A DNA stretch of 64,000 nt from an uncultured Acidobacteriota bacterium. Its GTDB lineage: Bacteria > Acidobacteriota > Thermoanaerobaculia > UBA5066 > Gp7-AA6. Position numbers and translations under genes: made by a program. The stretch is from assembly GCA_963724465.1 (NCBI GenBank), contig CAVRUT010000005.1:9611-73610 (forward strand), given 5' to 3'. The number at the start of each line of letters is the position of its first letter. The stretch's first letter is position 1. A model generated the notes under the pieces. The model was not told the origin of the DNA, did no database searches, and was given only the letters and a program-made list of their open reading frames with translations. Shown here in pieces: positions 1-14,051 of the stretch.

Positions 1-2549
1 GCCCGTGCAGCCTCGGCGCTGAACCACCCGAACATCCTTACGGTCCATGACATCGGTTCCGCCGATTCGATCGCATACATCGCGATGGAGTTCGTGGATG
101 GCGTGACGCTGGCCGAGCTGCTGGCGAAGGGGCCGCTCCCGATCAAGAAGCTCCTGAACGTCGCCGAGCAAATCGCCGACGGGCTCTCGAGCGCTCATGA
201 AGTGGGGGTGATCCACCGCGACCTGAAGCCGGGGAACATCATGATTTCCCGAGAAGGCTTCGTCAAGATCCTCGACTTTGGCCTTGCGAAGGTGCCGGCT
301 CCACCACAATCGCCCGCAGAGGACACGCACGCGAGGACCTTCAGCGGTCCGAAAACGCTGCCGGGGTATGTCGTCGGGACCACGGCATACATGTCGCCCG
401 AGCAGGCCCGAGGCGAGCCGATCGACTTTCGATCCGACCAGTTTGCCTTGGGGTCCGTTCTCTACGAGATGGCCACCGGGCGACAGGCGTTCCCGGGGCG
501 ATCCGACACGGACACGCTCCTCGCGATCCTCGAGAAGGAGCCGGAGCCGCTTTCGCAGGCTCGGCCCGGCGTGCCCCCTCCGCTCACCTGGATTGTCGAG
601 CGATGTCTCGCTAAGGACTCCGGGGACCGCTTCGTCTCGACGCGCGACCTCGCCCGCGATCTCGCCAGCGTCGGCGCTCACCTTTCCGAAATTGGCAGCT
701 CCGTCGAGAGGGCTGAGCAGCTGCGCGGGGGCCGCTGGAGGCGCCGCGCCTTTCGGGAGCGCGTAGCCTGGCTGGTGGCCGGGCTTTCGGTGCTTGCGGC
801 AGTTCTGCTGCTCCTCAGCCCTCGGCGTGACGCCGCTCCGGGGCGACCGATACGCCTTTCGCTGCTTCCCCCGAGAAGGCCGCGTTCAACTTCAGCAGCT
901 CCTCGCCGGGGCCCATAGCCGTCTCTCCCGACGGGAGTCGCGTGGTCTTCGGCGTCCGGGACGCCTCGGGAAGGGATCTGCTCTGGGTCCGGCCGCTCGA
1001 CGGCGTCACGGCTAAGCCTCTGGCTGGAACCGACGGCGCGACCTACCCCTTCTGGTCGCCCGATGGCCGCTCCATCGGGTTCTTCGCCGACGGAAAGCTG
1101 CGCCGCATCGAGGCTTCCGGCGGTCCTGCCGAGAGCCTGTGCGATGCGCCGAACGGCCGGGGTGGAACCTGGAACCAACAAGGCGTCATTCTGTTTGCGC
1201 CGGACAACGCTGGCCCGCTCTTCCGCGTTTCCGCTTCGGGGGGAAAGCCGGCTCCTGTCACACAGGTGGATGGCTCGCAACCGACCGCGACCCACCGCTG
1301 GCCGCAGTTTCTGCCGGACGGGCAGCACTTCCTCTTTCTCGCCTGGACCCCGAGCCGACCCTCGGACGTCGACGGAGTCTCCGTGGGATCACTCGACTCG
1401 AAGACAGCGAGGCCGCTTGTGCGGGACATTTCGAACGCTCTCTATGCTCCACCCGGATTCCTGCTCTATGTGCGGGAGGGCACCCTCCTCGCTACTGCCT
1501 TCGACGCAGTCTCTCTTCAGTTAAGGGGGCCGCCGGTTCCGCTCGTGGAGCAGGTCAGCTACCACCCCTACCGCCGAATGGGGATCTTCTCGGTTTCGAA
1601 CGCCGGCTTGCTGGCGTATCAGGCGGGCGCAATCCTCGAGCAGTCCGAGCTTTTCTGGCTCGATCGGACCGGGGCTCGCGTGGGGACAGTCGGGAGCCCG
1701 GGCAATTACTCCGGGGTCCGGCTCGACCGAGGCGGACGCCGCTTCGCGGTGGAGATCACGGAACCCCGAAGCGGAGACATCGACATCTGGCTCGGCGATC
1801 TCGCGCGCGGCGTTCTGACGCGCCTGACGTCAGGACAATTCGTCCACGACAGCCCGGTCTGGTCCCCGGACGGAGCCCAGATCGTATTCTCCTCCAACCG
1901 GAACGGGCACTTCGACCTCTTCCGAAAGAGCACGGACGGCGCGGGAGTCGAGGAGCCCCTCTTCACGTCGAGCAACGATAAATCGCCGACCGACTGGTCG
2001 GCCGACGGCCGCTTCATCGCCTTTGACGTCTTCGGCGAACGCGCCCACGAGCAGACCAGCTCCAAGCGCGGGGGAAAACACGAGGTCTGGATCTTTTCGG
2101 TCGCGGGCGGAGGCGCGACGCCGGTTCTCCAGACGGCGTTCAACGAATCGAGCGGTCGCTTCTCGCCCGATGGCCGCTGGCTCGCCTATTGCTCGGACAA
2201 CTCGGGAAGAAGCGAAGTGTACGTACGCTCCTTTCCCTCGCCCGGCGCGGAGTGGCGAGTTTCCGTCGATGGAGGCACGCAGCCGGTATGGCGTCCCGAC
2301 GGCCAAGAGCTCTTCTACGTCGGTGCCGATCGCAAGTTGATGGCGACCAAGACGAAGATCATGTCGGCTGTCACGCACGGCGCGATCGAGAGCCTGTTCG
2401 ACATACATTTGAGGTCTTCCGCCAGCGATATAGGGCTCTTCGACGTTGCGGCCGACGGCCGGCGGTTCCTGGTGAATACCCCGGTCGAGCGACAGACGTC
2501 GTCACCCGTCACCGTCGTGGTCAACTGGTCCGCGCCGCTACGCCGGTAG
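1..2549 (+). CDS. Ser/Thr protein kinase + TM + PD40/TolB-like beta-propeller (5'-truncated by window; frameshift near 870)
   Basis: Frame 1 reads ARAASALNHPNI...HRDLKPGN...DFG...YMSPEQ, then a hydrophobic segment. Adding one C to the C-run near 868-872 joins it to ORF 942..2549, which has WSPDG/FSPDG repeats. Confidence 0.9.
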
Positions 2550-3632
2550 TGCCTTTCGGCGCGTGTGGCCCTCGGGTCGGCCATGACGTGCGATCCCGGC
2601 GCCGCACACGTAGACCGGAAATTCCCGAACGCCATCCAGGCCGAGAAGTTTCTCGATACGGCTCTCCTTCATGGAAGCCGTCGTGAAGGCTCCGAGACGG
2701 CTCGCAGTCGCCAGAAGAGTGAAAGTCTGGGCCAGATGGCCGGCATCCAAGAAAAACAAGCGGTACGAATCGTCGGCGGAGTACTTCCAGAAGAGCCGGT
2801 CAGCGACCACGGTCATGATGCACAGAAAGGCCGCCTGTCGGATCCAGCTCTGTCCGGCGGCGAGGCGGACGGCCTCCTCGCGGAGGTCGCCCCGCCGAAG
2901 GCGCTCGAGACTATTCTCATGCACGTTGTAGTGATAGAGGCCCGCCGGCAGTCCCTCGACGCCCCAGGCCACGACATAACACTCGATCGGATGGCGGGCT
3001 CCCGCTGATGGGCTCGTCTTGGAGATTAGCCTCCCGAGCATTCCGGCATCCACCCACCCCGTCTGACCCCAGGTCCACCGAATGATGCTTGCGAAATCTC
3101 GAAACGGCACGAGACGGCGCGAGAAATCGCGCACGGTTCTGCGTCGCTCGAGCGCGCTTCTCAGGCTCGGACCGTGCTCGGTCGAGGCGTGATCGGGTAG
3201 AGGAAGGCGAGGCCGGCCGGGATAACTTTTGTACAGAGGAGGCTGCGGCTCCTCCGCCAGTCGGCGGCGGAAGTCCCGCGTCAGCTCCCCGGGGTCCGTC
3301 ACGTAGGAGACATCACGAGCGGCGAAATGAGAGTAAGCCGCCGGACAGGAGCCTCTCCACATCGCCGCCACGTCGCGGCGGGCGGTCCGGTCGGTGGCCG
3401 GAACGAGAAACCCCAGGTTTGCGAGCTTGCGAATCTCTCGCTCGACGGAGGCCGGCGTGTAGGTCATGAATGCCTTGGCGACCGAACGGCTCGACCTCGG
3501 CTTGCCGAATTCCGCGAGGAGCTCAACGACCAGCGGCGCCGCTGTGATCCGGCGGCGCCGGACGAACTCTTCGAGACAAAATTGGCTTCCTCGCCAATAG
3601 GCGACGACATTGGGGCTTCTGACGAGGCGCAT
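2538..3632 (-). CDS. SagB/ThcOx-family FMN-dependent peptide dehydrogenase with N-terminal wHTH/RRE-like region
   Basis: Motifs RRRTVRDF, KTSPSAGARHPIE, GLYHYN, FWKY (Lys-Tyr of azoline oxidases) and DAGHLAQ. The N-terminal ~80 aa end in VEREIRKLANLGFLV. Confidence 0.88.
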   Translation of the reverse strand: MRLVRSPNVVAYWRGSQFCLEEFVRRRRITAAPLVVELLAEFGKPRSSRSVAKAFMTYTPASVEREIRKLANLGFLVPATDRTARRDVAAMWRGSCPAAYSHFAARDVSYVTDPGELTRDFRRRLAEEPQPPLYKSYPGRPRLPLPDHASTEHGPSLRSALERRRTVRDFSRRLVPFRDFASIIRWTWGQTGWVDAGMLGRLISKTSPSAGARHPIECYVVAWGVEGLPAGLYHYNVHENSLERLRRGDLREEAVRLAAGQSWIRQAAFLCIMTVVADRLFWKYSADDSYRLFFLDAGHLAQTFTLLATASRLGAFTTASMKESRIEKLLGLDGVREFPVYVCGAGIARHGRPEGHTRRKALPA

Positions 3633-3672
3633 CCCCGTTCGCTTGTGCCCTAACGGCTTGTCACGAGGAGCG

Positions 3673-3846
3673 TTACTTACAGGTTTTCGACGTTTTCCAT
3701 TTGCTTGCCGTATTCACGAGCTTCTTGATCTCGAGGTTGAGCACTTTCATGAGTTCGTTCGTGGCCTTGCGCCTTTTTCTTTCGGCCTTGATCGCGGCCT
3801 TGAGCCTTTCGATTTGGGTCTTCTTCTTCGTCCTCGCTCCTGCCAC
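3673..3846 (-). CDS. 57-aa basic peptide, putative RiPP precursor (MAGARTKKKTQIERLKAAIKAERKRRKATNELMKVLNLEIKKLVNTASKWKTSKTCK)
   Basis: Translated by hand. Strong SD GAGGAGGT 4 nt before GTG, TAA stop 40 nt upstream of the SagB start, same strand. Below the ORF-track length cutoff. Confidence 0.75.
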   Translation of the reverse strand: MAGARTKKKTQIERLKAAIKAERKRRKATNELMKVLNLEIKKLVNTASKWKTSKTCK

Positions 3847-3940
3847 GCTCACCTCCTCGAGTCTCAGACTCGCTTTACCGGAAGACTATCCGATTGCCGA
3901 ATCCCGTGCGAGGAGGCGGGCGATGCCCGCCGAAGGAATG

Positions 3941-3986
3941 TGGTGCGCCCGGCGCGATTCGAACGCGCGACCTTTAGCTCCGGAGG
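3941..3986 (-). repeat. att site: 46-bp exact copy of tRNA-Arg(CCG) 3' half (distal)
   Basis: tggtgcgcccggcgcgattcgaacgcgcgacctttagctccggagg is identical to 11914..11959. Confidence 0.95.
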
Positions 3987-4114
3987 AGAGAAGGGGGAGG
4001 AGTCGACGACACCCGAGGACAGCTCAGAGTAGGTTTCTCAACGATTTAGCTCCGGGCGTCTGTCGAGGACTTTCCGGAGCGTTCGCCAAGACAGGAAGAA
4101 AACACGGAGAATCG
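3987..4114. repeat. Conserved 128-bp att arm (IHF-like box 4036..4048; tandem ACACGGAGAA-type repeats 4091..4114)
   Basis: Ungapped alignment to 9220..9347 with about 26 mismatches by hand count (~80% identity). Confidence 0.85.
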
Positions 4115-4495
4115 AACCGGTTCTGGAGATAGCGGGAGGCGCCCTCGATTCGGGGCGGTTGTCACCGAAGGGTTCGGCCAGGTTTCGAATCTACGACCCT
4201 CCGCCGGGCCGCGGGGTGTCGCCTTTGTACATTTGTCGGGGAGCCGACTTATTGCGATCAGGCTCGGAGTTGGACTTCCCGAGTCTCATTCCGAGTCTTG
4301 ACCCGCGTCTGCCCCGGTCGGAGCCTCCTCACGACACAAGCCGCCGGGAGGGCTTCGGTCGCCGAATCCTCCGCCCGGATAGGGCTGAAGAACCGGCTGG
4401 CCACTGACCTCCCGATCGCCGCCCCTCGGGGCGGCGGTTCTCTCTCGTTCCGTCCGCCCGGCTTCCAGCGTGAATAACCTCGAGGGCAGCAACAT

Positions 4496-7270
4496 CTAGA
4501 GCGGGTTGTCGCGTCTCTCCCGCGGTTCGTCCGAATAGGACTTGACGAAATCGGCGACGGCGAGGATCTTGCCCTCCGGTCCGGCGACGGCCTCGATCGT
4601 GAACGTCCCGTAGGGCAGGTCCTCGGGCAATCGCCACGACGTCGAGAACACGCCGTCCTTGCCGACCGCCAAGCTTTGCTCCGGCAGCTTCATTTCTCGA
4701 ATGCGCAGAGTCACCTTCTCGCCGGCGGGAAAGCCGCGTCCCGAGACCTCGAGCGCGTTGTCCGGGCCCAGCCCGGCGACCCCGCTCGAGGGATAGGCCG
4801 TCGAAAGGAAAAGCTTGGCGAGGCCGGGATAGGCTTCGCCCCGCGGAGTCGGAGGCTCTTCCGGCTTGCGAGCTAGGACGCCGACGGTCCCCTCAGTGTC
4901 CGCGACCGGCGGGCGCCGATCCCAGTAAGGCGGATCGGTCTCGGAGCAACCCGAAGTTCTCTGGAGAAACCACAATCCATGGCCCCAGCTCGCGATGTGG
5001 ACCGCGCCGTTGGGATAGAAATGAAACCCCGTCACGTAGCTGATCCGCGCCGAGTTCTTGATCGTGCGCCAGGTCTTCCCGTCGTCCGTCGTGCAGATCA
5101 CGCCCGCGTCGCGAGTGCCCACGAGGATCCGCCCTTCCCGGTAGGGATCGAACGCGATCTTCGTGACCTGCATGTGGTAGTCGTCCATGTCGCGCATCTT
5201 CAGCCGGCCGCCCTGGAGCACCTGAGCCGTGAGCCGCTGGTCCTTCGCCCACGTCTGGCCGCCGTCGTGGCTCACCTTCACGTCCCCGGCCACGACGTCC
5301 GGCGCGATGAGGAAGCGCCAATCGTAGGGATCGGCGCCGAACACCGCATGCGAATCCCACTGCGCCGCGCGGCGCCCGAGACTGCCGCCGCCCGGAAGAC
5401 GGACGGCATCGCTGTCGTCGATCGTGTCCACGCGATCGGCGTAGAGATTGGATAGGGGGACGAGCCCGATGCCGCCGGTGCCGAGGTACACCGACACCCA
5501 GGCCATCACGCCCTCTCGCGGTAGGCCGCCCGTAACGACGTCGGGGTTCACGTGCGCGGCGACCCCTTCGGTGAGCACGCCGCCCTTCAGGTTCGTGCGT
5601 TGCACCGAGCCGGCCCAGCCGAAGTTGAGGTCGAAGCGCCGTCGCCAGGTGTTTCCGCCGTTCGTGGAAACGTAGACCCCGTTGCTCGGTCCGCCCCCGA
5701 TGCGGAGACGCACCCAACTGGTCGCCGTGCCTCCCGCCGACGGCTCGAGATAGAACGCCTGCTTCATCTGACCGGAATCGAGCGGCTGCCCGTTCTGGTC
5801 GATGTCCGGAACGAGCCGCTGGTTGAGAAAGTTCGCGTCGGCGAACTGTTCGGCCCAGTTGCCCCCGATCTCGACGTATCCCACCGTGATGGGCTCGCCC
5901 GGCCGGGCGTCGGGACGGACCTCCAGGTCGTAGCCTTCCGCCGCATCGCTGCGCGGCCACGTCTTCCCGCCGTCCGCGGAGGCCCAGAGGTTGTTGTCCT
6001 GCGTGCCGAAATAGAGCGACGTCGACAGGACCGCTCCGTCGGGCCTCACCATGTTGGTGCCGGCGAGATCCGTGATCTGAAGCGAGTTCATTCCGCTGCC
6101 GGGAACGGCGGCGCTCACCCAGTCGCCGATCCCTGGCGTCGTCGGCGGGCGCGGCTTGAAGAGACCGCCGTCGCTGCCGAGGAAGGTCGGCTTGAGACCC
6201 GCATTCACACCCAGATCGCTCATGTCGGCATGAATGCCGGCGGTGGCGATGTAGCTTGTCCAGTCCCCCTGGGTCAGCGCTCGGAACTCCTCCACCGTGG
6301 CCCGGGTCACCTGATACCCATCCCAGCCATGGCCGGTCCAGACCTTGATGGGCCACGGCCCAAACTCGGGCCCCGGCTCCTTCGTGACGCGTATGAAAGG
6401 ACCGCGCGATTTGCCCTGGGGTGTCGTGAGCAACGTCTTCGTGTCCGTGTCGAGCTCATAGAACCAGATCGTGCCGAAACGGTCACTCGGCGAGTTGTTG
6501 TGATACTCCCTGAGGATGAAGGCCCACGGCGCGTAAGGCGAGCGGTCCATCTTGTTCGCGCCGTACTGGAAGTTCCCGCTGAAGAAAGAGTCCGCGATCA
6601 CGTTGCGCCACGTGCCGCCCCGATCGTCGCTGCGATAAAGCGCGTTGGACGCGAGGGCGAGCACCTGACCCTTCGGGAACGCCAGGACCGCCTGCACCAT
6701 CGGCGGGAGCGTCGGCTCGAGCGCCTTGTGGGTCCAGGTGTCGCCGTTGTCGGTGCTGATCGCCACGCCGAAGTCCGTGCCGACGTACCAGAGACCGTTC
6801 TGGTCGGGCGACGGCGAAACCCCATACGCGCTCGTGCGCGTGATGGACGGCGTCGGCGGCACGACGCCGGTCGCCGGCCGGGTCCAGCTTCCGCCGCGGT
6901 CATGACTCACGTAGATGCCGCCGCCGTTAGCGACCTGGTTGTCTCGAAAGACCGTGGCGATCACGGTGGTTCCGTCGGCACCGAACTCGACGTCGCCGAC
7001 CATGACCGCGGGCAGCGAAAAGATGCGGAACCAGTTCTCTCCGCCGTTGATCGTCCCCCACAGGCCGCCGAACTCCATCGCCACGAGAGCGCGGTTTCGA
7101 TCGACGGGACTGACCGCGATCGACTGCACGCGGCCCGCGTTGAAGTCGTTTCCGGCGCTGTCGGCGAAGGCCGGCGGAATCGCGGGAGGGTCCTGAATCA
7201 GATGCACGGTCTCGCAGCCTGCGACGACCACGAACGACAGCAGACCGGCGACGGCGCGAAATCGAGACAT
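4496..7270 (-). CDS. Secreted lipoprotein with BNR/Asp-box repeats (sialidase/GH74/VPS10-like beta-propeller)
   Basis: SD GGAGGAGG, then MSRFRAVAGLLSFVVVAG-C lipobox. Many S-x-D-x-G-x-T/S-W repeats. Confidence 0.82.
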   Translation of the reverse strand: MSRFRAVAGLLSFVVVAGCETVHLIQDPPAIPPAFADSAGNDFNAGRVQSIAVSPVDRNRALVAMEFGGLWGTINGGENWFRIFSLPAVMVGDVEFGADGTTVIATVFRDNQVANGGGIYVSHDRGGSWTRPATGVVPPTPSITRTSAYGVSPSPDQNGLWYVGTDFGVAISTDNGDTWTHKALEPTLPPMVQAVLAFPKGQVLALASNALYRSDDRGGTWRNVIADSFFSGNFQYGANKMDRSPYAPWAFILREYHNNSPSDRFGTIWFYELDTDTKTLLTTPQGKSRGPFIRVTKEPGPEFGPWPIKVWTGHGWDGYQVTRATVEEFRALTQGDWTSYIATAGIHADMSDLGVNAGLKPTFLGSDGGLFKPRPPTTPGIGDWVSAAVPGSGMNSLQITDLAGTNMVRPDGAVLSTSLYFGTQDNNLWASADGGKTWPRSDAAEGYDLEVRPDARPGEPITVGYVEIGGNWAEQFADANFLNQRLVPDIDQNGQPLDSGQMKQAFYLEPSAGGTATSWVRLRIGGGPSNGVYVSTNGGNTWRRRFDLNFGWAGSVQRTNLKGGVLTEGVAAHVNPDVVTGGLPREGVMAWVSVYLGTGGIGLVPLSNLYADRVDTIDDSDAVRLPGGGSLGRRAAQWDSHAVFGADPYDWRFLIAPDVVAGDVKVSHDGGQTWAKDQRLTAQVLQGGRLKMRDMDDYHMQVTKIAFDPYREGRILVGTRDAGVICTTDDGKTWRTIKNSARISYVTGFHFYPNGAVHIASWGHGLWFLQRTSGCSETDPPYWDRRPPVADTEGTVGVLARKPEEPPTPRGEAYPGLAKLFLSTAYPSSGVAGLGPDNALEVSGRGFPAGEKVTLRIREMKLPEQSLAVGKDGVFSTSWRLPEDLPYGTFTIEAVAGPEGKILAVADFVKSYSDEPRERRDNPL

Positions 7271-7471
7271 TGGGCCCTCCTCCGGGAATAGAAGCGAATT
7301 TCGATGCCGCGCCCCGACAGTATGGCGCAGATCGCGTGTCGTTTCTCCTATTTCGCTCCTGGTGCTGCCCGTTCGCGGCGCGACCAATCCCCCGGAAGCT
7401 GCTCCGGATCGGCGAGTTGCGGCGGGTCAGCAACCAACCCGACTGGTAGAAGACCGCCACGGGCGTCCCGC

Positions 7472-8695
7472 TCAGCCAACTCGCCTCCCGACCCGCGTGG
7501 ACCTTCGCCGATCGCCACGACGCGGGGCAAGGCGGTCTCTCTTGATGAGGCCTGACTTCTCCAATTTCTTAAGGATCTCGCTGATGTCTTCAGCGGAAGT
7601 CCGTTCCATTGCCGACGCCAACTCATGGCCATAGAAACGTCGCTTACGTGCCATGTATCTCAGCGCTAATGCCCCTTCCAAAGGCAACTCGGTTCGTCTT
7701 GTCGTTTGGCCGACTTTCGTGATCAAGACAATCTTTTTCTCGCCTCGGCGTTCTACCACCCGGGTGTGATACTTGAGCGGAGTTTTTCGCTCGAAGGAAG
7801 CCGTTAGCGATGCGCCCCACTTTGCGAGCAAGCGGTCGGGACTCATCCGATCCGCGGCATTACAGACTTCGTGGACTAACTTCGTAAGCCGTTGTCCCTG
7901 CCAGTCCCGGCCGCCCGTCGACCCAAGGCCAAAGGCTAGTTCTCGAGCGTCATCAACTTTGTTTAGGTGAGCCTTCAATTCATCGACGAGAAGGTCGGCC
8001 CATGAAGGCGGATTGATGGTGTAGAGGAGCGACAAAGACGGCTCGTGATTGGCGGTGGAGTGCCAATAACCCGGATGCAGATACACGAGTGTGCCTTGTC
8101 GCGCTTCAAACCTTCTGGACCCCCTCGGCATCTTCGACGGGAAGGGTTGCCGCGAATAGGCCTTCATTTCGTCGTCCACGTCGGTGCCAACATTCCAGCC
8201 AGCGTGCGGATGTTTGAGATGCTTATTCTCTGCAATTTGCCATTGTTTTGCGCCGATCAACTGAATGTTGATCGTCACGTTCGGATCGAAATGAACTGCC
8301 GATCCGGCTCCCTTTGACGCGAATGCTTCAAAGAACACCTCTTCACCTCTCAGGCCCAAATCGAGTTCCAGACGGCGTGCGAGAGGTTTCAGGGCAGGGA
8401 CGTGTTCTTCGACATGGGACAAATAAAGCGTGTAGCCGCTCTCGAAGAAGTCAGACAGCTGTTCCGCCTCGGCCGTAATCACTGGGTTCTTAGTGTCCCG
8501 CGGTGCCCAGGCCTCCGCGGTGCCACGCCACACTTCCAAGATTGCCTCGATGCTGCGGAGTGCCGGAATCGTTGCGATCTCTTTGAACCGTTCTAGCGAA
8601 CCGTGGCGCACATACGGTCGTTTTTGCCAGTATCTGGACATGAACACATCTGTGGAGAGCGGGTGCAGCAGCTCAGCCAGCCCCAAAGTCTTCAT
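7472..8695 (-). CDS. JmjC/cupin-4 2-oxoglutarate/Fe(II) oxygenase (RoxA/YcfD-like), start uncertain (8695 or 8731)
   Basis: FMSRYWQKRP, HFD...QLIGAKQW and YLHPGYWH give the HxD...H triad. C-terminal wHTH-like end. Visibly lower GC than the flanks. Confidence 0.82.
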   Translation of the reverse strand: MKTLGLAELLHPLSTDVFMSRYWQKRPYVRHGSLERFKEIATIPALRSIEAILEVWRGTAEAWAPRDTKNPVITAEAEQLSDFFESGYTLYLSHVEEHVPALKPLARRLELDLGLRGEEVFFEAFASKGAGSAVHFDPNVTINIQLIGAKQWQIAENKHLKHPHAGWNVGTDVDDEMKAYSRQPFPSKMPRGSRRFEARQGTLVYLHPGYWHSTANHEPSLSLLYTINPPSWADLLVDELKAHLNKVDDARELAFGLGSTGGRDWQGQRLTKLVHEVCNAADRMSPDRLLAKWGASLTASFERKTPLKYHTRVVERRGEKKIVLITKVGQTTRRTELPLEGALALRYMARKRRFYGHELASAMERTSAEDISEILKKLEKSGLIKRDRLAPRRGDRRRSTRVGRRVG

Positions 8696-8788
8696 CCCAA
8701 ATCTCGGAGCGCTAGAGTCATCAGAACTCAACTAAGCTCGTGTTCCTCATGACACCGTGGAGACCTTCACGAGAGTATAGGCCGACCG

Positions 8789-9110
8789 TTACAGCCTTTT
8801 TCCCTGCTGTTCTGCGCCGACGCCGCAGATCCTCGATTTTCGTCCGAAGTCTCTCCTCAGGCTCCGCCAGACGGCTCATGAAGGTTCGTAGCTCTTTGAG
8901 TGCGAAGTAGCGACGTTGAGTCGATAGAGCCTCGGCCGACCGGCCATCCTCGAGGCAACGAGACCGTCTTTCTCGAGTCCCGAGAGCGCTTTCTGAACTC
9001 CGGAAAGGGCCTGCTCGAGGACCCGAAGTAGCTCGCGCGGGTAGCCCTCCTCGAGCAGGTTCAAGGCGATGAGCGCGCGAGTTTTGGTGCAGGGGTCCGA
9101 GGCGAAGGCG
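8789..9110 (-). pseudogene. Degraded winged-helix DNA-binding protein
   Basis: TKTRALIALNLLEEGYPREL...KALSGLEKDGLV...RLYRLN, frameshift, then RYFALKELRTFMSRLAEPEE...GKRL*. No clear start codon. Confidence 0.6.
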
Positions 9111-9173
9111 AAGGTGGCCGGGGCGAAGCGCCCAGCCCTGCCTCAGGATGACGACTTAGGTCCTTGGAAAGAT

Positions 9174-9219
9174 TGGTGCGCCCGGCGCGATTCGAACGCG
9201 CGACCTTTAGCTCCGGAGG
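9174..9219 (-). repeat. att site: 46-bp exact copy of tRNA-Arg(CCG) 3' half (middle)
   Basis: Identical to 11914..11959 and 3941..3986. Confidence 0.95.
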
Positions 9220-9347
9220 GGAGAACGGTGAGGAGCCGACGACACCCGACGATAGCTCAGAGTAGAAAGATCAACGAGTTGGCTCCAGGCGCCTGTCATG
9301 GACTTTCCTCGACTTTCCCCAACACACGGAGAAAACACGGAGAATCG
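9220..9347. repeat. Conserved 128-bp att arm (IHF-like GATCAACGAGTTG 9269..9281; ACACGGAGAA x2 at 9324..9347)
   Basis: Homologous to 3987..4114 at identical spacing from the att core. Confidence 0.85.
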
Positions 9348-9406
9348 GGCGAGTCAACGCCTGTCGCTCTTGCCGGCTGGTTTTCGAGCGGAGTGGGTAA
9401 GGCATC

Positions 9407-11618
9407 TCAGGTCCCTTCCTTCGGCGCTGGGTAGAGCCTCTCGAATTCCGGGTCCCCGTGAAGGCTCGCAAGGTCCGGGTCGCGGCGCGTCCAGTCGGCG
9501 TCCTTGAAGCCGGCCTCCCAGGCCTTCCGCAGGGCGTCGAGCGCTTCGGCGCGCTTGCCGAGATTGGCGAAGGTGCAGGCGGCGTTGTAGAGCACGGTGG
9601 CCTCGTCCGGTCTCAGCACCATCGCCAGGTTCGCCTCGCGGACCGCAGTCCTCGGAGCGCCCCTCCTGGGCGTACACCCCGGCGAGGAGGATCCGCGCCC
9701 GCGCGTCCTCCGGAACCTCACGCAGGTGGCTCTCGAGCGCCTGAAGCTGGCGCCGCCGGACGTCGCGGTTGGCGTCTTCCCTTCCCAGTGCGCCGAGCGC
9801 GTTCCTGATCGGCACATAGACGTTGTAGTCGCTGCCCGCCGCCTCGATCGCTTCCTCCTTCAGCGCGGCCACCTCTTCGTACTTGCCGGCGGAGAAGAGC
9901 CCCCGCAGCAGGAGGTAATACGCCCCCTCGCAGTCCCGCTTGCGCGCGATGGCGGCCCGGGTCAGCCGCTCGGCGTCCTCGTACCGTCCGCCGGCGTAGA
10001 GGATCCAGCCCTGGGAGACGAGAACTTCGGGAATGTCGGGCGCGAGCGCGACCGCCCGCAGCGAAGCCGACTGGGCGCGCTCCATGTACGTCCCGCCGGG
10101 CCCGGACCAGTACTGGGCGTGCGCGCAGCCGTTCGCGATCGCCGCCCAGGCGAGGGCGAAGCTGGGATCGAGCGTGACCGCGTTCTCGAACATCTGAAGG
10201 GCGAACTCCATGTCCCGAGTCGTCCGCCGGCGGGCGTAGCTGCGGCCCCGCAGGTAGAGGTCGTAGGCCTGGAGGTTCTCCGTCGGCTTGGCCGCGAGCT
10301 CCGCCTGCTCCTGCGGAGTGAGCTTGATTCGCAGCGCCTCTGCGATCTTGTGCGCGATCTCGTCCTGCACCTCGAAGATGTCGGACATCTCGCGGTCGTA
10401 TCGCTCCGACCAGACCGGGAAGCCGGTGGCCGCGTCCACGAGCTGGGCATTGATCCGCAGCCGGTTGCCGGCGCGGCGCAGGCTCCCCTCGAGCGCGTAG
10501 TCGGCCCGCAGCTGGCGGCTGACGTCCGACGCGGTCGTCTTCTGGTCGCGGAAGGCGAGCACCGTGGTGCGCGGGAAGACGTTCAAGCCCTTGATCTTCG
10601 AGAGGTCGGTCAGGATGTCCTCGGTGATGCCGTCCCGCAGGTACTCGTCTTCCTTCACCCCCGAGAGGTTTTCGAAGTAGAGGACGGCGATCGAGCGCTC
10701 CGCGCGCCGGGCCGGCGCCTTCGAGTCGGAGGCTGCGGCCGGGCCGGACCGGCTCCCTTCGAGCTTCCTCCGCAGTCGAAGGAGGTCGGTCTTCAGCTCC
10801 GTCGCGGTCTGGTAGCGGAGGCTGCGGTCCTTCTCGAGCGCCTTCTCGAGGATCGGCGCGAGCGCCTCGGGCATCGCCGGGTTCACCTCCGCGAGCGGCC
10901 GGGGGTCGCGGTTCAGGATCGCGTCGAAGACGACCGCCTGGGTGTCGCCCTCGAAGGCCCGATCGCCGGTGGCCATCTGGTAGAGGATCGCGCCGAGCGA
11001 GAAGAGGTCGGTGCGGGCGTCGGTCGGCAGCCCGCGCGCCTGCTCCGGCGACATGTAGTGGACCGTGCCGAACACGGTCCCGGCCGCGGTCAGGTCCGCC
11101 CGCGGGGGCGCCGTGGGAGAGGTCGTCTCGGCGCTCGCCGCGCCGGGGCCCTCGAACTTCGCCAGGCCGAAATCGAGGATCTTCACCTGGCCGCGGGAGG
11201 TCACCATCATGTTCATCGGCTTCAAGTCGCGGTGGACGATGCCCTTCGCGTGCGCCGACTCGAGCGCGTCGGCCATCTGGATCCCGAGATCGAGGAGCTG
11301 CCCGATCTCCATCGGCTGTCCGGCGAGCCGCGTCGAGAGGGGTTCGCCGTCGACGAGCTCCATCACGATGAACGACTGGCCCTCGTGCTGTTCGATGGCG
11401 TGCACGGTGCAGATGCCGGGGTGGTTCAAGGCCGAAGCCGCGCGCGCCTCGCGCTCGAACCGCTCCAGCATGGGCGCGTCCTGCGCGAGCTCCGACGAGA
11501 GAAACTTCAACGCAACGTTTCGCCGGAGCCGTGTGTCCTCCGCCTCGTACACCACGCCCATGCCGCCGGCACCGAGCTCGCGAACGATCCGGTAGTGAGA
11601 AACCGTTGTTCCGAGCAA
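9407..11618 (-). CDS. Ser/Thr kinase + TolB-N-like domain + TPR repeats (frameshift near 9650)
   Basis: SHYRIVRELGAGGMG, HRDLKP, DFG, SIAVLYFENLS, AYDLYLRG. The C-terminus (YNAAC...DPDLASLHGDPEF) is in ORF 9407..9817. Confidence 0.9.
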
Positions 11619-11713
11619 GTCTGCTCCTCGAGCGAGGCTGGACTTTACCGCACTATGGTCTTGGCGCGGCGGGCCCGTCGTGTCAAAGTTGGTCTCCCAT
11701 CGACGGGATCCGG

Positions 11714-11895
11714 GGGCATCGGCGATCTCGACGTTCTTGCGCTACGACATCGCTTCGGAGGAGGGCAAGCGGGAGACGCTCCGGAAGGTCGAGGCGCGAA
11801 TCGCTGCGGAGGCCGGAGAGCCCTCCAACGCAGTCCCGCTTCGCAAACACGGACAAGACACGGAGAATCGGGGCTTCGGGGCGGGGGAGGGGTAG
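11714..11895 (+). pseudogene. C-terminal remnant of a tyrosine recombinase/integrase
   Basis: GHR-[1-nt frameshift]-ISTFLRYDIASEEGKRETLRK resembles box II (GH...xxRY with the catalytic Tyr). It ends 18 nt from the tRNA att. Confidence 0.65.
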
Positions 11896-11913
11896 GCCAA
11901 ATCCTTGAAAGTT

Positions 11914-11991
11914 TGGTGCGCCCGGCGCGATTCGAACGCGCGACCTTTAGCTCCGGAGGCTAACGCTCTATCCGGACTGAGCTACGGGCGC
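11914..11991 (-). tRNA. tRNA-Arg(CCG)
   Basis: Acceptor stem GCGCCCG/CGGGCGC, anticodon arm TTAGC-CTCCGGA-GCTAA, TTCGAAT T-loop, encoded CCA. Confidence 0.97.
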
Positions 11992-12013
11992 AAGCAACGA
12001 CGCGAGAACCCTT

Positions 12014-12091
12014 TGGGGTGAGTGGAGGGATTCGAACCCTCGACATCCAGATCCACAGTCTGGCGCTCTAACCGGCTGAGCTACACCCACC
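12014..12091 (-). tRNA. tRNA-His(GTG)
   Basis: G-1, anticodon arm CCAGA-CTGTGGA-TCTGG, GTTCGAATC, C73 discriminator and CCA. Confidence 0.97.
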
Positions 12092-12290
12092 GTGGGCCGG
12101 GCAGTCTAGCACGTCGCCTCCGCTTGCGAGGGATCTGCGCGCTTCGCGCGCACCGGCGCTCGGCTCGCCCGGATGCGGGCTCGACCGAGCGCCTGATCCC
12201 TCGCAGCGCTCCGGCTCCCGCGGCGCGAGCCTCCTCCCTTCCTTCGGTCGGGAGACTCCTCGCGCCGCGAGCTTTAGCGACTTCCCGGCA

Positions 12291-12785
12291 TTACCTTTTC
12301 TCGGCCCGTGTGTTTTCGGCCAGGACCTTGAGCTCGATGCGGGCGAGGGCGTAGGCCGAGCGGACGACGTCGCCGTAGACGATCAAGCGCACGGGGCCCT
12401 CGTTTTCCGGCAGGGGCCCGGCCGAGGTCTCGGCGACGAGGAAGACTCTCGGGTTGGCCCGGGCCATTCGCAGCTCCCCGACGGAGAAGACGACGGTGTA
12501 GCCGTCGCGCGCCGTCGCGAGGACGACTTCGGCTGCCGTCTTGCGGTCGCCGGCCATCGTCTTCAAGTCGAGGCCGTTCTTCTCGAGCACCTCGAGCAGC
12601 GGCATGCCGTGGTAGACCTTGACGTTGCCGTCCGTGTCCTCGAGGCGGACATCCCGGGAGTCGCGGCCGAGCAGCGCCTCGGGGGTGACCGCCTTGTCGG
12701 CCGCGCCCGGCAGGCGCAGGACCGGCGGCGCCTCGGCCGCAAAGAGCGGCGCGGCCAGCAACAGCGCGGCGGCGAGCGATTTCAT
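12291..12785 (-). CDS. Secreted protein, molybdopterin-oxidoreductase-like fold
   Basis: Signal peptide; YHGMPLLEVL, ARDGYTVVFSVGEL and GPVRLIV motifs. Confidence 0.65.
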   Translation of the reverse strand: MKSLAAALLLAAPLFAAEAPPVLRLPGAADKAVTPEALLGRDSRDVRLEDTDGNVKVYHGMPLLEVLEKNGLDLKTMAGDRKTAAEVVLATARDGYTVVFSVGELRMARANPRVFLVAETSAGPLPENEGPVRLIVYGDVVRSAYALARIELKVLAENTRAEKR

Positions 12786-12812
12786 TCTCGATGACCTCGC
12801 AGTCCTGTGATT

Positions 12813-14051
12813 CTACGCGCGCTCGAGCCGGACGACGTCTTCGTAGGTCTCCCGTTGCCGGACGAGCCTCGCCGCGCCGTTCTCGACGAGGACCTCGGCG
12901 GGCCGGCGTCGGAAGTTGTAATTGGATGCCATGACGAACCCGTACGCGCCGGTGTCGCGGATCGCGAGCAGGTCACCTTCCTGCGGCCGCACGATCCGGG
13001 CGCCCCGCAGGAAGCTGTCGGCGGTTTCACAGACGGGCCCGACGACGTCGGCGGTGACGAACCGATCGTCCGAAGCGGGCTTGACCCTCTCGATCGAATG
13101 CATGGCCTGGTAGAGCGCAGGCCGCAGCAGGTCGTTCATCCCCGCGTCGGCCACGACGAAGGTCCGTCCGCGTTCCTCCTTGACATACTGGACGCGCGTC
13201 AAGAGCACTCCCGCCCTTCCGGTGATCGCGCGCCCGGGCTCGATCAGGACGCGAAAGCGTCGGCCGGTCAGAAAGGGCAGGACGGCGGCCGCGTAGGTCT
13301 CCGGCGAGAGGCTCGACTCGCCGATGCCGATTCCCCCGCCGACGTCGAGGCTCTCGATCGGGAATCCGGACCCGGCCAGCGTCGCGGCCAGTTCCGAGAG
13401 CTCACGGGCTGTCTCGGCCAGAGGCTCGGCGGCGAGGATCTGGCTGCCGATGTGAGCCTGGACGCCGACCATGCGCAGGTTCGGAAGCCGGCGCGCCATC
13501 TCGAAGACCTCGGGGGCGCGGGCGATGTCCACGCCGAACTTGTTCTCTTTGAGCCCCGTCGAGATGTAGGGGTGCGAACGCGCGTCGATGTCCGGGTTCA
13601 CCCGCAGGGCGACACGGGCGAGAGCTCCGTGCTGCCGCGCGATTGCGTCGATCTTTTCGATCTCACGCTCGGACTCGGCGTTGAAGGCGAGGATGCGTGC
13701 GTCCACGCCAGATGCGATCTCCTCGTCGGTCTTGCCGACTCCCGAGAAGACGATCCGGTCGGCCGGGATGCCGCATTGGAGTGCCGCCCTGAGCTCCCCG
13801 CCCGAGACCACGTCGGCACCGGACCCGAGCCGGGCGAGGCGCGTCAGGATCGCGAGGCTCGAGTTCGCCTTGGCGGCGTAGCAGACCAGGTGCGGCACCG
13901 CCGCGAAGGCGGCTTCAAAGCGCCGGAAATTCTCCTCGATGGAGGCCCAGCTGTAGACGTAGAGCGGTGTCCCGAACTCGCGGGCGAGCTCCTCGAGCGA
14001 CACCCCGTCGCAGGTCAGCTCGCCGTCTTGCCTACCGAAGCCCGCCGACAT
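12813..14051 (-). CDS. lysA: Diaminopimelate decarboxylase
   Basis: FGTPLYVYS, YAAKANS (PLP Lys), DVVSGGE, KFG, HIGSQI, EPGR, VVGPVCETAD, GAYGFVMASNYN. Confidence 0.96.
   Translation of the reverse strand: MSAGFGRQDGELTCDGVSLEELAREFGTPLYVYSWASIEENFRRFEAAFAAVPHLVCYAAKANSSLAILTRLARLGSGADVVSGGELRAALQCGIPADRIVFSGVGKTDEEIASGVDARILAFNAESEREIEKIDAIARQHGALARVALRVNPDIDARSHPYISTGLKENKFGVDIARAPEVFEMARRLPNLRMVGVQAHIGSQILAAEPLAETARELSELAATLAGSGFPIESLDVGGGIGIGESSLSPETYAAAVLPFLTGRRFRVLIEPGRAITGRAGVLLTRVQYVKEERGRTFVVADAGMNDLLRPALYQAMHSIERVKPASDDRFVTADVVGPVCETADSFLRGARIVRPQEGDLLAIRDTGAYGFVMASNYNFRRRPAEVLVENGAARLVRQRETYEDVVRLERA

What the first reader, a model, noticed from the sequence alone, without database searches (positions are those of the whole stretch)
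3941..11991. Tandem array of integrase-less cassettes at tRNA-Arg(CCG) with conserved att arms
Seen: the tRNA 3' 46 bp (anticodon loop to CCA) occur three times exactly (3941, 9174, 11914), defining two small units of about 5.2 and 2.7 kb. Each displaced copy is followed by a colinear, ungapped 128-bp arm (~80% identical by hand count). Neither unit encodes an intact recombinase, replication or transfer gene, and their cargos are unrelated. Established: tyrosine integrases targeting tRNAs regenerate the tRNA and leave such fragments, and tandem islands are known. Inference: the retained arms with complete loss of machinery suggest non-autonomous cassettes mobilised in trans, an integron-like accretion platform. 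Plain decay of two related islands is the alternative.
Basis: partly seen in the sequence, partly recalled or inferred. Interest (0 to 1): 0.78.

Follow-up and report, generated by a model that had tools for sequence, protein, structure and literature searches.

The report
Integrase-less island array at tRNA-Arg
Downstream of a tRNA-Arg gene in an Acidobacteriota genome lie three small gene blocks left by related integrating elements that have lost their integrase but partly kept their attachment sites, a known kind of relic whose sister blocks are swapped between related species.

Summary
The 46-bp 3' part of tRNA-Arg(CCG) occurs three times exactly, at 3941, 9174 and 11914. Each displaced copy is followed by a 128-bp arm; the two arms are 80% alike and ungapped. 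A fourth, decayed copy lies 458 bp before the window and closes a third unit.

No unit has a recombinase, replication or transfer gene. Unit A keeps the last ~60 codons of a tyrosine integrase (11713-11895, +). Intact relatives of it, 77-80% identical, turned up only in metagenome contigs. None of the 105 genomes searched in this family has one; the two best matches are broken.

Core-plus-arm copies occur in 17 of 44 genomes of the genus and in three genera of one family. The arm ends sharply at a repeated ACACGGA motif, which recurs in the integrase tail on the other side of the core, as arm-type binding sites would.

Units shared between species are about 91% identical, against about 74% for the adjacent chromosome, so integrase-less units have moved between species. 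How they moved is open: a rare helper integrase, or homologous recombination through the conserved tRNA and att sequences.

In this window only unit A has both arms. No circles or empty sites could be tested. This matches known cis-mobilizable elements and tandem accretion, not an integron. Interest is moderate.

The parts
11914..11991 (-). Intact tRNA-Arg(CCG). Its 3' 46 nt (11914-11959) are the recombination core, i.e. the attL side of the array.
   Evidence: ARAGORN; Rfam tRNA 68.8 bits. It is the only tRNA-Arg(CCG) in the assembly.
12014..12090 (-). tRNA-His(GTG), the chromosomal neighbour of tRNA-Arg. Beyond it lies the conserved flank (molybdopterin-oxidoreductase-like ORF, arginine/ornithine decarboxylase).
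   Evidence: The flank is syntenic in relatives at about 71-76% identity.
11713..11895 (+). Unit A, P' side: C-terminal remnant (about 60 codons, including the catalytic-Tyr region ...ISTFLRYDIASEE...) of a tyrosine integrase that reads towards the tRNA.
   Evidence: Six-frame translation. Aligned to intact metagenome integrases. tblastn with P0003 matches residues 297-362 at 71% identity.
11847..11872 (+). P' copy of the 26-nt ACACGGA-repeat motif, 41 nt from the core and inside the integrase tail. Candidate arm-type integrase binding site.
   Evidence: the repeat finder family D4. With up to 2 mismatches, the motif core occurs only 3 times on the + strand within the first 30 kb of contig C5 and not at all in the 30 kb scanned on the - strand, each time at an att position.
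9354..11618 (-). Unit A cargo: Ser/Thr protein kinase with TPR repeats, 754 aa.
   Evidence: Pfam Pkinase 3.8e-42 plus TPR. 84-90% DNA identity in many genus members.
9220..9349 (+). Unit A, P arm (128 bp), ending in the ACACGGAGAAAACACGGAGAATCG motif at 9324-9349. It starts 6 nt after the kinase stop codon.
   Evidence: Conservation profile over 25 copies.
9174..9219 (+). Displaced core copy 1: an exact 46-nt copy of the tRNA 3' part, forming the junction between units A and B.
8879..9142 (-). Unit B, tRNA-proximal end: open frame with weak winged-helix similarity. There is no integrase tail and no ACACGGA motif. Only about 13 nt next to the core resemble other P' sides.
   Evidence: Pfam TrmB/MarR_2 E about 0.01, below the cut-offs.
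7472..8731 (-). Unit B cargo: JmjC (cupin) domain protein with a C-terminal HTH-like stretch. GC is low (0.54-0.57, against about 0.68 around it).
   Evidence: Pfam JmjC_2 6.7e-8. Composition. No homologous DNA in the relatives' fetched loci, and depth 0 in the four runs laid.
4496..7387 (-). Unit B cargo: BNR/Asp-box, sortilin-Vps10-type beta-propeller protein, 963 aa.
   Evidence: Pfam. 79-83% DNA identity to genes at loci without att sites in G007, G022 and G023.
3987..4116 (+). Unit B, P arm (128 bp), with the motif at 4091-4116. The first half-site is degenerate (ACAGGAA).
   Evidence: 93% identical over 87 nt to the arm that follows the kinase in G019.
3941..3986 (+). Displaced core copy 2: an exact 46-nt copy, forming the junction between units B and C.
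2538..3632 (-). Unit C cargo: nitroreductase-family protein, 364 aa.
   Evidence: Pfam 4.6e-19. The unit C block is 84-86% identical to blocks in G023 and G057 arrays.
942..2549 (+). Unit C cargo: PD40/WD40-like beta-propeller protein, 535 aa.
   Evidence: Pfam PD40 1.2e-24.
1..663 (+). Unit C cargo: kinase-domain paralogue, 48% identical to the unit A kinase. Its 5' end and the terminal degenerate core (G000:C5:9117-9152, i.e. 458-493 nt before window base 1) lie outside the window.
   Evidence: tblastn; core. The chromosome left of that core is syntenic with G008 and G006.

Best explanation
The locus is an integration hot spot at the 3' end of the single tRNA-Arg(CCG) gene. It has taken up, one after another, at least three small elements of one family.

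The family's tyrosine integrase is about 375 aa. Its gene reads towards the tRNA and ends about 20-60 bp from the core. It recombines a 46-50 bp core identical to the tRNA's 3' part, which regenerates the tRNA and leaves a displaced core copy at the far end of each element. The attP is about 240 bp. It is bounded on both sides by direct ACACGGA-repeat motifs (41 nt and 105 nt from the core) that are probably arm-type integrase sites.

After integration the integrase genes were deleted. Unit A keeps about 60 codons; units B and C keep nothing. What remains are att-flanked, non-autonomous blocks, i.e. cis-mobilizable-element-like relics. Units that kept a working integrase can leave again, so arrays become enriched in locked units.

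The repeated att relics then act as portable homology and as potential recombination sites. Comparison across the genus shows that such integrase-less blocks are exchanged between species and are reshuffled, fused and truncated at the att repeats.

Shown: the anatomy, the integrase remnant, the family-wide distribution, the absence of an intact cognate integrase in the genomes searched, and the excess identity of shared units.

Inferred: the order of events, the binding role of the motif, the survivorship bias, and the way units travel (together with, or by means of, a rare helper element, or by homologous recombination).
For: Anatomy in the window:
- Exact cores and ungapped arms.
- Fourth, decayed core at the conserved chromosomal boundary.
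- Integrase remnant in unit A aligned to intact integrases, including the RY catalytic region.

Intact relatives of the integrase:
- They exist in metagenomes. P0003 (379 aa) matches the G006 fragment at 77%. Its contig L074 carries integrase, then motif, then a 50-nt core that is not part of a tRNA.
- In-genus paralogues (about 56%) sit convergent on tRNA-Pro and tRNA-Ser genes, the same architecture.

Arm conservation:
- The alignment of 25 core+arm copies from 17 fetched loci shows a near-invariant core, a conserved 68-nt block, a variable stretch of about 40 nt, the conserved motif, and then an abrupt loss of similarity.
- Core+arm matches of 100 nt or more occur in 17 of 44 genus genomes.
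- The arm occurs in 20 of 151 order genomes, all in one family and three genera.

Integrase tails and loss of the integrase:
- tblastn finds integrase tails beside many tRNA and displaced cores.
- No intact cognate integrase was found in any of the 105 family genomes searched. The best matches are G006 (68%, 4 stops) and G057 (66%, 2 stops, cut by a contig end). Intact ones are at most 51% identical.

Exchange between species:
- 77 genome pairs share at least 2 kb within the first 8 kb of the array. Median identity is 90.9%, against 73.7% for the adjacent 3-kb chromosomal flank.
- One unit (PadR, MacB/FtsX permease, DUF6326) is 86-98% identical in at least 13 genomes, with the same integrase-tail breakpoint.
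- Arms are 100% identical between G023 and G057.
Against: No excision product, circle or empty site was seen. Only assembled contigs of four runs could be laid, and they held at most 0.28 of the sampled words.

The P' motif is kept beside only 10 of 25 tRNA cores and 9 of 39 displaced cores. The P arms of the widely shared unit are truncated differently in different genomes. Many units therefore cannot now be substrates for site-specific recombination.

The kinase gene also occurs without any att site at other loci in G006, G017, G021 and G023. Its arm in G019 belongs to a different arm lineage than in this window. So unit A has a mosaic history rather than behaving as a fixed cassette.

The 85-90% identity of the kinase could reflect selection in a high-GC genome rather than transfer.

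Pseudogene calls in G006 and G057 rest on MAG assemblies, where indel errors are possible.
Confidence: 0.62

Rival explanations
1. Active cassette platform. The units are non-autonomous cassettes that a cognate integrase supplied in trans still excises and integrates, singly or in blocks, at any core copy. The integrase would come from a rare, transient autonomous element. The array would then work as an integron-like accretion and exchange site.
For: Unit A has exact cores plus both motif-bearing arms. The arm has a sharp functional-looking boundary across 25 copies. 10 of 24 displaced cores are still exact while arms differ by 15-30%, which argues for recent integrations. Integrase-less units are shared between species at about 91%, against 74% for flanks, and with an identical integrase-tail breakpoint, so the integrase-less form itself spread. 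The same units sit at different positions in different arrays: the kinase unit is first in G000 and G044, second in G012, third in G019 and G058. Intact cognate integrases exist in metagenomes.
Against: No cognate integrase was found in this assembly (which is only 64% complete) or in any of the 105 family genomes searched. Most units lack one arm motif. The distal arms of the most widespread unit are truncated in several different ways. No circle or empty-site joint was seen. Position differences are also explained by later integrations at the tRNA.
Confidence: 0.22
2. Exchange by homologous recombination only. The units are dead relics. Their spread between species happens by uptake of DNA and RecA-dependent double crossover in the conserved tRNA-His/tRNA-Arg genes on one side and in the core, arm or integrase-tail repeats on the other. 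No integrase is involved.
For: No cognate integrase was found in any of the 105 genomes searched. Junctions are heterogeneous: arms truncated at different points, and deletions that join an integrase tail directly to cargo at the shared motif in G006, G021 and G058 and in contigs of three runs. The arm lineage is swapped relative to the kinase between G000 and G019. The high-identity tract stops at the tRNA genes, and the intergenic DNA beyond tRNA-His is unalignable.
Against: The anchors are short (46 nt exact; arms 70-90% alike). The original build-up of tandem units, each with an exact core and an integrase tail, needs site-specific integration. Sharp motif-bounded arm conservation is not expected of mere homology anchors.
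Confidence: 0.13
3. Plain vertical decay. Two or three related islands integrated long ago and have simply eroded in place, with no later movement.
For: Integrase remnant in unit A. The cores get worse with distance from the tRNA: the fourth copy carries a 10-nt deletion. There are no mobility genes.
Against: Two displaced cores are still 46/46 exact. Units B and C are not shared with most relatives that share the kinase unit. Across the genus, shared units are far more alike than the flanks.
Confidence: 0.03

Closest known systems
Cis-mobilizable elements (CIMEs) and tandem accretion, defined on ICESt1/ICESt3 of Streptococcus thermophilus (passages read in the review PMC5704250; the primary papers by Pavlovic 2004 and Bellanger 2011 were seen only as references there)
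   Same: These are elements that have lost their integration and transfer genes but keep attL and attR. They lie in tandem with related elements at the 3' end of a target gene, and arise by integration, decay, then integration of another element into the att site. Mobilisation as a composite with a functional neighbour has been reported.
   Different: Here no functional neighbour is present in any genome examined. The units are very small (about 1-8 kb, one to three genes). No conjugation module is known for the family. Many units keep only one arm. The host is Acidobacteriota. Mobilisation has not been shown.
Dehalococcoides ssrA-specific genomic islands (PMC3146451, passages read)
   Same: Multiple tandem islands lie downstream of a single-copy small RNA gene, each bounded by a direct repeat of its 3' end, with extra conservation next to the repeat. 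The authors report 15 islands without an integration module and suggest they may be cis-mobilizable. There is evidence of recent horizontal transfer of the islands.
   Different: There the recombinase is a serine recombinase in a six-gene integration module that is present in 16 islands, and the repeat is 20 bp. Here the recombinase is a tyrosine integrase, the core is 46 bp, and every unit examined lacks an intact integrase.
Integron gene cassettes (recalled knowledge, no paper read)
   Same: An ordered array of small promoter-poor gene units without their own recombinase, each ending in a recombination site, accreted at one chromosomal site.
   Different: There is no intI gene, attI site or Pc promoter beside the array. 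The sites are split attP arms plus a tRNA-derived core, not folded attC hairpins. Units carry integrase remnants, up to three genes, and mixed orientations.
Xer-dependent modules (IMEX elements and pdif modules; recalled knowledge, no paper read)
   Same: Recombinase-less modules bounded by recombination sites, found in varying contexts and sometimes in tandem, moved by a recombinase encoded elsewhere.
   Different: Those use the host's XerC/XerD and 28-bp dif-like sites. Here the sites derive from a tRNA-targeting phage-type integrase, and no trans-acting enzyme has been identified.

Membership tests
tRNA-targeting tyrosine-integrase integrative element (genomic island) | Direct repeats of the tRNA 3' end bound the element, and the tRNA gene is regenerated intact. 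| tested here: met
   Three exact 46-nt copies plus one decayed copy. Intact tRNA by ARAGORN and Rfam.
tRNA-targeting tyrosine-integrase integrative element (genomic island) | An intact integrase gene lies next to one att site. | tested here: not met
   The PF00589 search of the whole assembly finds nothing on contig C5. Only a remnant of about 60 codons lies at 11713-11895.
Cis-mobilizable element (CIME) | Lacks integration and transfer genes. | tested here: met
   Pfam and PHROGs scans of all sizeable ORFs of units A-C.
Cis-mobilizable element (CIME) | Retains both attL and attR. | tested here: inconclusive
   By sequence, unit A has exact cores and both motif-bearing arms. Unit B has the P arm only. 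Unit C has neither arm and a decayed outer core. Function of the sites was not tested.
Cis-mobilizable element (CIME) | Derived by deletion from an integrase-bearing element of the same family. | tested here: met
   This holds for unit A only: its integrase C-terminal remnant is 71-80% identical to intact P0003. tblastn found no remnant in units B or C.
Cis-mobilizable element (CIME) | Can be excised or transferred together with, or by, a related functional element. | not testable with these tools
   Only contigs of public runs could be laid, and no core-to-core joint was listed. No helper element was found in the 105 genomes searched.
Integron | An intI integrase gene with adjacent attI and a cassette promoter at the head of the array. 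| tested here: not met
   There is no PF00589 match on the contig apart from the remnant. The head of the array is a tRNA gene.
Integron | Cassettes end in attC sites, which are imperfect inverted repeats that fold as single strands. | tested here: not met
   None of the 25 longest inverted repeats listed for 3000-14000 lies within an arm. The arms align colinearly as direct repeats. Single-strand folding of the arms was not run.

The most novel reading that the evidence does not exclude
In this acidobacterial family the tRNA-Arg(CCG) gene is the head of an integron-like exchange platform. Small integrase-less gene cassettes each carry a split attP of about 240 bp, bounded by ACACGGA arm sites. 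A tyrosine integrase encoded elsewhere, on rare and transient helper elements, inserts, excises and swaps them between species. The array would then be a shared, reshufflable gene pool rather than a graveyard.
Probability: 0.2. Interest if true: 0.7.

Novelty: new member of a known kind. Interest (0 to 1): 0.45.

Why it matters
Mobile elements of Acidobacteriota are little described. This locus and its relatives show a family-wide hot spot, with arms found in 20 of 151 order genomes, all in one family. There, one- to three-gene blocks (Ser/Thr kinases, PadR-regulated MacB/FtsX permeases, beta-propeller proteins) sit between recognisable att sites and are exchanged between species without carrying an integrase.

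If a helper integrase moves them, this would be a natural example of a tRNA-based cassette platform run by a phage-type tyrosine integrase. It would also give a defined attP (46-bp core plus two motif-bounded arms) for genetic tools in a phylum that is hard to manipulate.

If they move by homologous recombination, it would show how att relics serve as portable homology for gene exchange.

Either way, the concept (cis-mobilizable relics and tandem accretion) is already in print, so the finding extends a known kind to a new lineage.

Tried and rejected
- Excision, circle or empty-site evidence. The look-up of sequencing runs found 24 runs, none holding more than 0.28 of the sampled words and all kept as contigs. 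Laying four of them listed no core-to-core joint. The 9346->11907 joint has only 23 nt on one side plus 38 foreign letters; I read it as another strain's ordinary integrase-tail-to-core stretch, not an excision. Of the joints, 112 more were not shown. This says nothing for or against excision.
- The arm as a known RNA. An Rfam scan of 3600-12300 at E up to 1 found only the two tRNAs and sub-threshold noise.
- The arm as a decayed 5' half of a tRNA duplicate. I rejected this by eye from the alignment, where the 32 nt before the core do not resemble the tRNA 5' half.
- Hidden mobility genes. PHROGs gave only a kinase family for the kinase. Relaxed Pfam on small open frames gave only sub-threshold winged-helix hits.
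- A universal sharp P' boundary. Remnant starts cluster about 70-210 nt from the core. Closer alignment shows that some remnants continue upstream in decayed form, and short remnants escape BLAST, so I make no claim.
- Telling site-specific from homologous exchange by where high identity ends. It ends at the tRNA genes, which fits both.
- The earlier-findings tool was not open.
- The genome-contig scan with the integrase alignment returned only 5 loci: the two broken copies and distant relatives.

Full report
**1. The observation**

ARAGORN finds tRNA-Arg(CCG) at 11914-11991 and tRNA-His(GTG) at 12014-12090, both on the minus strand. Rfam confirms both. The 46 nt that run from the last base of the 5' strand of the anticodon stem to CCA are exact at 3941, 9174 and 11914.

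The repeat finder reports a 174-nt pair, 3941-4114 and 9174-9347, at 85% without gaps. The arms alone are 80.3% identical over 127 nt.

A BLAST of the core against the whole assembly adds a fourth copy just outside the window, at G000:C5:9117-9152. The assembly is 3.0 Mb in 16 contigs and 64% complete; the window is C5:9611-73610. The fourth copy has 28 nt exact, a 10-nt deletion, then 8 nt.

DNA to the left of that copy is syntenic with relatives: G008 at 72% over 4.6 kb, G006 at 79% over 3.4 kb. So the array has three units, and the decayed fourth core is its outer end.

**2. Content of the units**

- Unit A (11913 down to 9220) holds one gene, a Ser/Thr kinase with TPR repeats.
- Unit B (9173 to 3987) holds a JmjC-domain protein of low GC (0.54-0.57) and a 963-aa BNR/sortilin-type propeller.
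- Unit C (3940 to 458 nt before the window) holds a nitroreductase-family protein, a PD40 propeller protein and a second kinase paralogue.

Pfam and PHROGs find no recombinase, replication or transfer protein, even at relaxed thresholds on the small open frames.

**3. The integrase remnant and the att anatomy**

The 295 bp between the tRNA and the kinase start encode, on the plus strand...ISTFLRYDIASEEGKRETLRKVEARIAAEAGEPSNAVPLRKHGQDTENRG. This aligns with the C-terminus of tyrosine integrases, including the catalytic RY.

A longer broken copy in relative G006 served as a query and retrieved full-length metagenome proteins. P0003 (379 aa) is 77% identical, P0005 72%, and P0007-P0012 67-71%. 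P0003's own contig (L074, 3477 nt) carries the intact gene, then an ACACGGA repeat, then a 50-nt core that is not part of a tRNA.

Paralogues in the genus, about 56% identical in that stretch, lie convergent on tRNA-Pro or tRNA-Ser genes. This is a family of tRNA-targeting integrases whose gene ends just before the core.

The motif ACACGGAnAAnACACGGAGAATCG lies inside the integrase tail, 41 nt from the tRNA core (11847-11872). It also closes both 128-bp arms (9324-9349 and 4091-4116), all in direct orientation. With up to two mismatches, its core occurs only at these three places on the + strand within the first 30 kb of the contig, and not at all in the 30 kb scanned on the - strand.

Joined through one core, the two sides give an attP of about 240 bp bounded by the motif on both sides. 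This is the layout expected of arm-type binding sites. That reading is an inference.

**4. The same structure in relatives**

Record titles name two relatives as uncultured Acidobacteriota.

- A 174-nt core+arm query finds matches of 100 nt or more, covering core and arm, in 17 of 44 genomes of the genus.
- The arm alone is found in 20 of 151 genomes sampled from the order. All are in one family and three genera; the other two families give 0 of 63 and 0 of 7.

I fetched 40 regions, built an nhmmer profile, and aligned 25 full core+arm copies from 17 fetched loci. The alignment shows:

- a nearly invariant core;
- a strongly conserved 68-nt block next to it;
- a variable stretch of about 40 nt;
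- the conserved motif;
- an abrupt end of similarity.

Ten of 24 displaced cores are still 46/46 exact, while arms differ widely (pairwise median 70.5%). Because attP must match the tRNA, the arm differences mostly reflect different element lineages. The near-perfect cores point to fairly recent integrations.

**5. Integrase loss is general**

tblastn with P0003 finds integrase tails beside many cores, both tRNA and displaced, usually only the last 20-85 codons. The few longer pieces are all broken:

- G006: residues 81-352, with 3 TGA and 1 TAG inside.
- G057: residues 109-379, with 2 TGA, several frame changes, and cut by a contig end.
- Fragments in G016 and G045.

In 105 genomes of the family, no intact protein exceeds 51% identity to P0003. 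That count includes the unpublished genomes G060 and G161. In this assembly the only intact relative (31%) sits beside tRNA-Pro(TGG) on contig C9.

The units therefore descend from integrase-bearing elements, and no cognate enzyme is seen in any genome that holds an array. Two caveats apply. This MAG is 64% complete, and frameshifts in MAGs can be assembly errors.

**6. Units move between species**

An all-against-all comparison of inter-core segments shows blocks shared by many species.

The clearest is a 3.1-3.7 kb unit encoding a PadR regulator, a MacB/FtsX-type permease and a DUF6326 protein. It is present in at least 13 genomes at 86-98% identity. It usually lies next to the tRNA, but is second in G021, G023 and G024 and third in G001. 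Its integrase-tail breakpoint is the same in the copies aligned.

Over the 77 genome pairs that share at least 2 kb in the first 8 kb of the array, median identity is 90.9%. The 3-kb chromosomal flank just beyond the tRNAs gives 73.7%. The intergenic DNA beyond tRNA-His cannot even be aligned. An arm is 122/122 identical between G023 and G057.

The kinase unit of this window is first in G000 and G044, second in G012 and third in G019 and G058 (95.7% between those two). So the integrase-less form of at least some units has spread horizontally.

**7. Evidence against a tidy cassette model**

- Only 10 of 25 tRNA-side and 9 of 39 displaced-core P' sides keep even one motif half-site (background 3%).
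- In this window unit B has no P' motif and unit C has no arms.
- The distal arm of the PadR-permease unit is full in G014, internally deleted in G012, cut to a few nucleotides in G047, and replaced in G006, G021 and G058 by a direct fusion of the neighbour's integrase tail to the cargo at the shared motif.
- The same kind of fusion appears for this window's BNR block in contigs from three of the four public runs laid: 4097-7426 at about 98.5%, joined to integrase-tail-like sequence. The JmjC gene has no cover there.
- The kinase occurs without att sites at other loci in G006, G017, G021 and G023.
- The arm behind the G019 kinase is 93% like this window's unit B arm but only 74% like the unit A arm.

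These mosaics fit frequent homologous recombination and deletion among the repeated att relics.

**8. Mechanism**

The best-supported account is serial site-specific integration of small elements at the tRNA, followed by loss of each integrase by deletion. Elements with a working integrase can leave again, which biases arrays towards locked units. The att-flanked blocks that persist are then reshuffled and exchanged.

How integrase-less blocks cross species is open. They may travel together with, or by means of, a rare helper element (accretion and cis- or trans-mobilisation). Or they may move by homologous recombination anchored in the tRNA genes and att repeats. I put these at about 0.22 and 0.13 as stand-alone explanations. 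The combined relic-plus-exchange account gets 0.62.

No read-level test of excision was possible. The runs found hold at most 0.28 of the words and are kept as contigs.

**9. Comparison with what is known**

The review PMC5704250 (passages read) defines CIMEs as elements that lost their integration and transfer genes but kept attL and attR. It describes the three-step path of integration, decay and accretion, and notes that transfers of CIME-ICE tandems have been observed.

PMC3146451 (passages read) describes tandem islands at ssrA in Dehalococcoides, bounded by 20-bp repeats. Fifteen of them lack an integration module, and the authors suggest these may be cis-mobilizable.

The present array fits this kind. 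By sequence, unit A meets the CIME criteria, unit B partly, and unit C not. It is not an integron: there is no intI, attI or Pc, the sites are not attC-like inverted repeats, and the units carry integrase remnants.

I searched the literature once (terms cis-mobilizable element, accretion, integrase). I did not search for acidobacterial reports specifically, so I make no claim that this family is unreported. Supplements of the two papers were not opened.

**10. Verdict**

This is a new member of a known kind (cis-mobilizable relics in tandem at a tRNA gene) in a little-studied phylum, with good comparative evidence that integrase-less units are exchanged. There is no evidence yet that this window's units are mobile now.

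Noticed in passing
window 7472-8731 (-): A JmjC/cupin-domain ORF with a C-terminal HTH-like stretch. Its GC is 0.54-0.57 in a genome of 0.68. It has no DNA homologue in the fetched arrays of relatives and no cover in the four runs laid. It looks like a recent foreign gene.
   Followed up: partly
L021 6102-9870 (G012) and counterparts in at least 13 genomes: A 3.1-3.7 kb unit (PadR regulator, MacB/FtsX-type permease, DUF6326 protein) lies next to tRNA-Arg. It is 86-98% identical between species whose flanks are about 74% identical. It is absent from this window.
   Followed up: partly
G000:C9:11434-12177 and C9:12304-12378; G000:C1:41180-41458 and C1:39849-39925: In the window's own genome, a distant intact integrase of the same broad family (31% to P0007) lies beside tRNA-Pro(TGG). 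An integrase remnant lies near tRNA-Pro(CGG). Other tRNA genes may carry similar islands.
   Followed up: no
L037 4166-7298 (G023:C7): In G023 about 3 kb, including a kinase paralogue, separate tRNA-Arg from tRNA-His. The two tRNAs are only 22 nt apart in this window.
   Followed up: no
L064 6657-6806 (G019:C1:1220655-1220805): An arm copy lacking the first 23 nt of the core lies on a different contig from the tRNA-Arg array of G019, next to a kinase paralogue. It may be a relocated piece of an array.
   Followed up: no
G028:C1:2536709-2545673 and similar rows: Relatives from other families of the order carry runs of up to five tandem paralogues of the kinase-TPR gene (71-74% DNA identity to 9429-11600).
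   Followed up: no
window 9354-11618 versus relatives: In the tblastn table, nearly every relative's match to the kinase breaks at query residue about 658-660 and resumes in another piece. The C-terminal ~95 residues of this window's copy therefore differ in frame or by an indel from the others.
   Followed up: no
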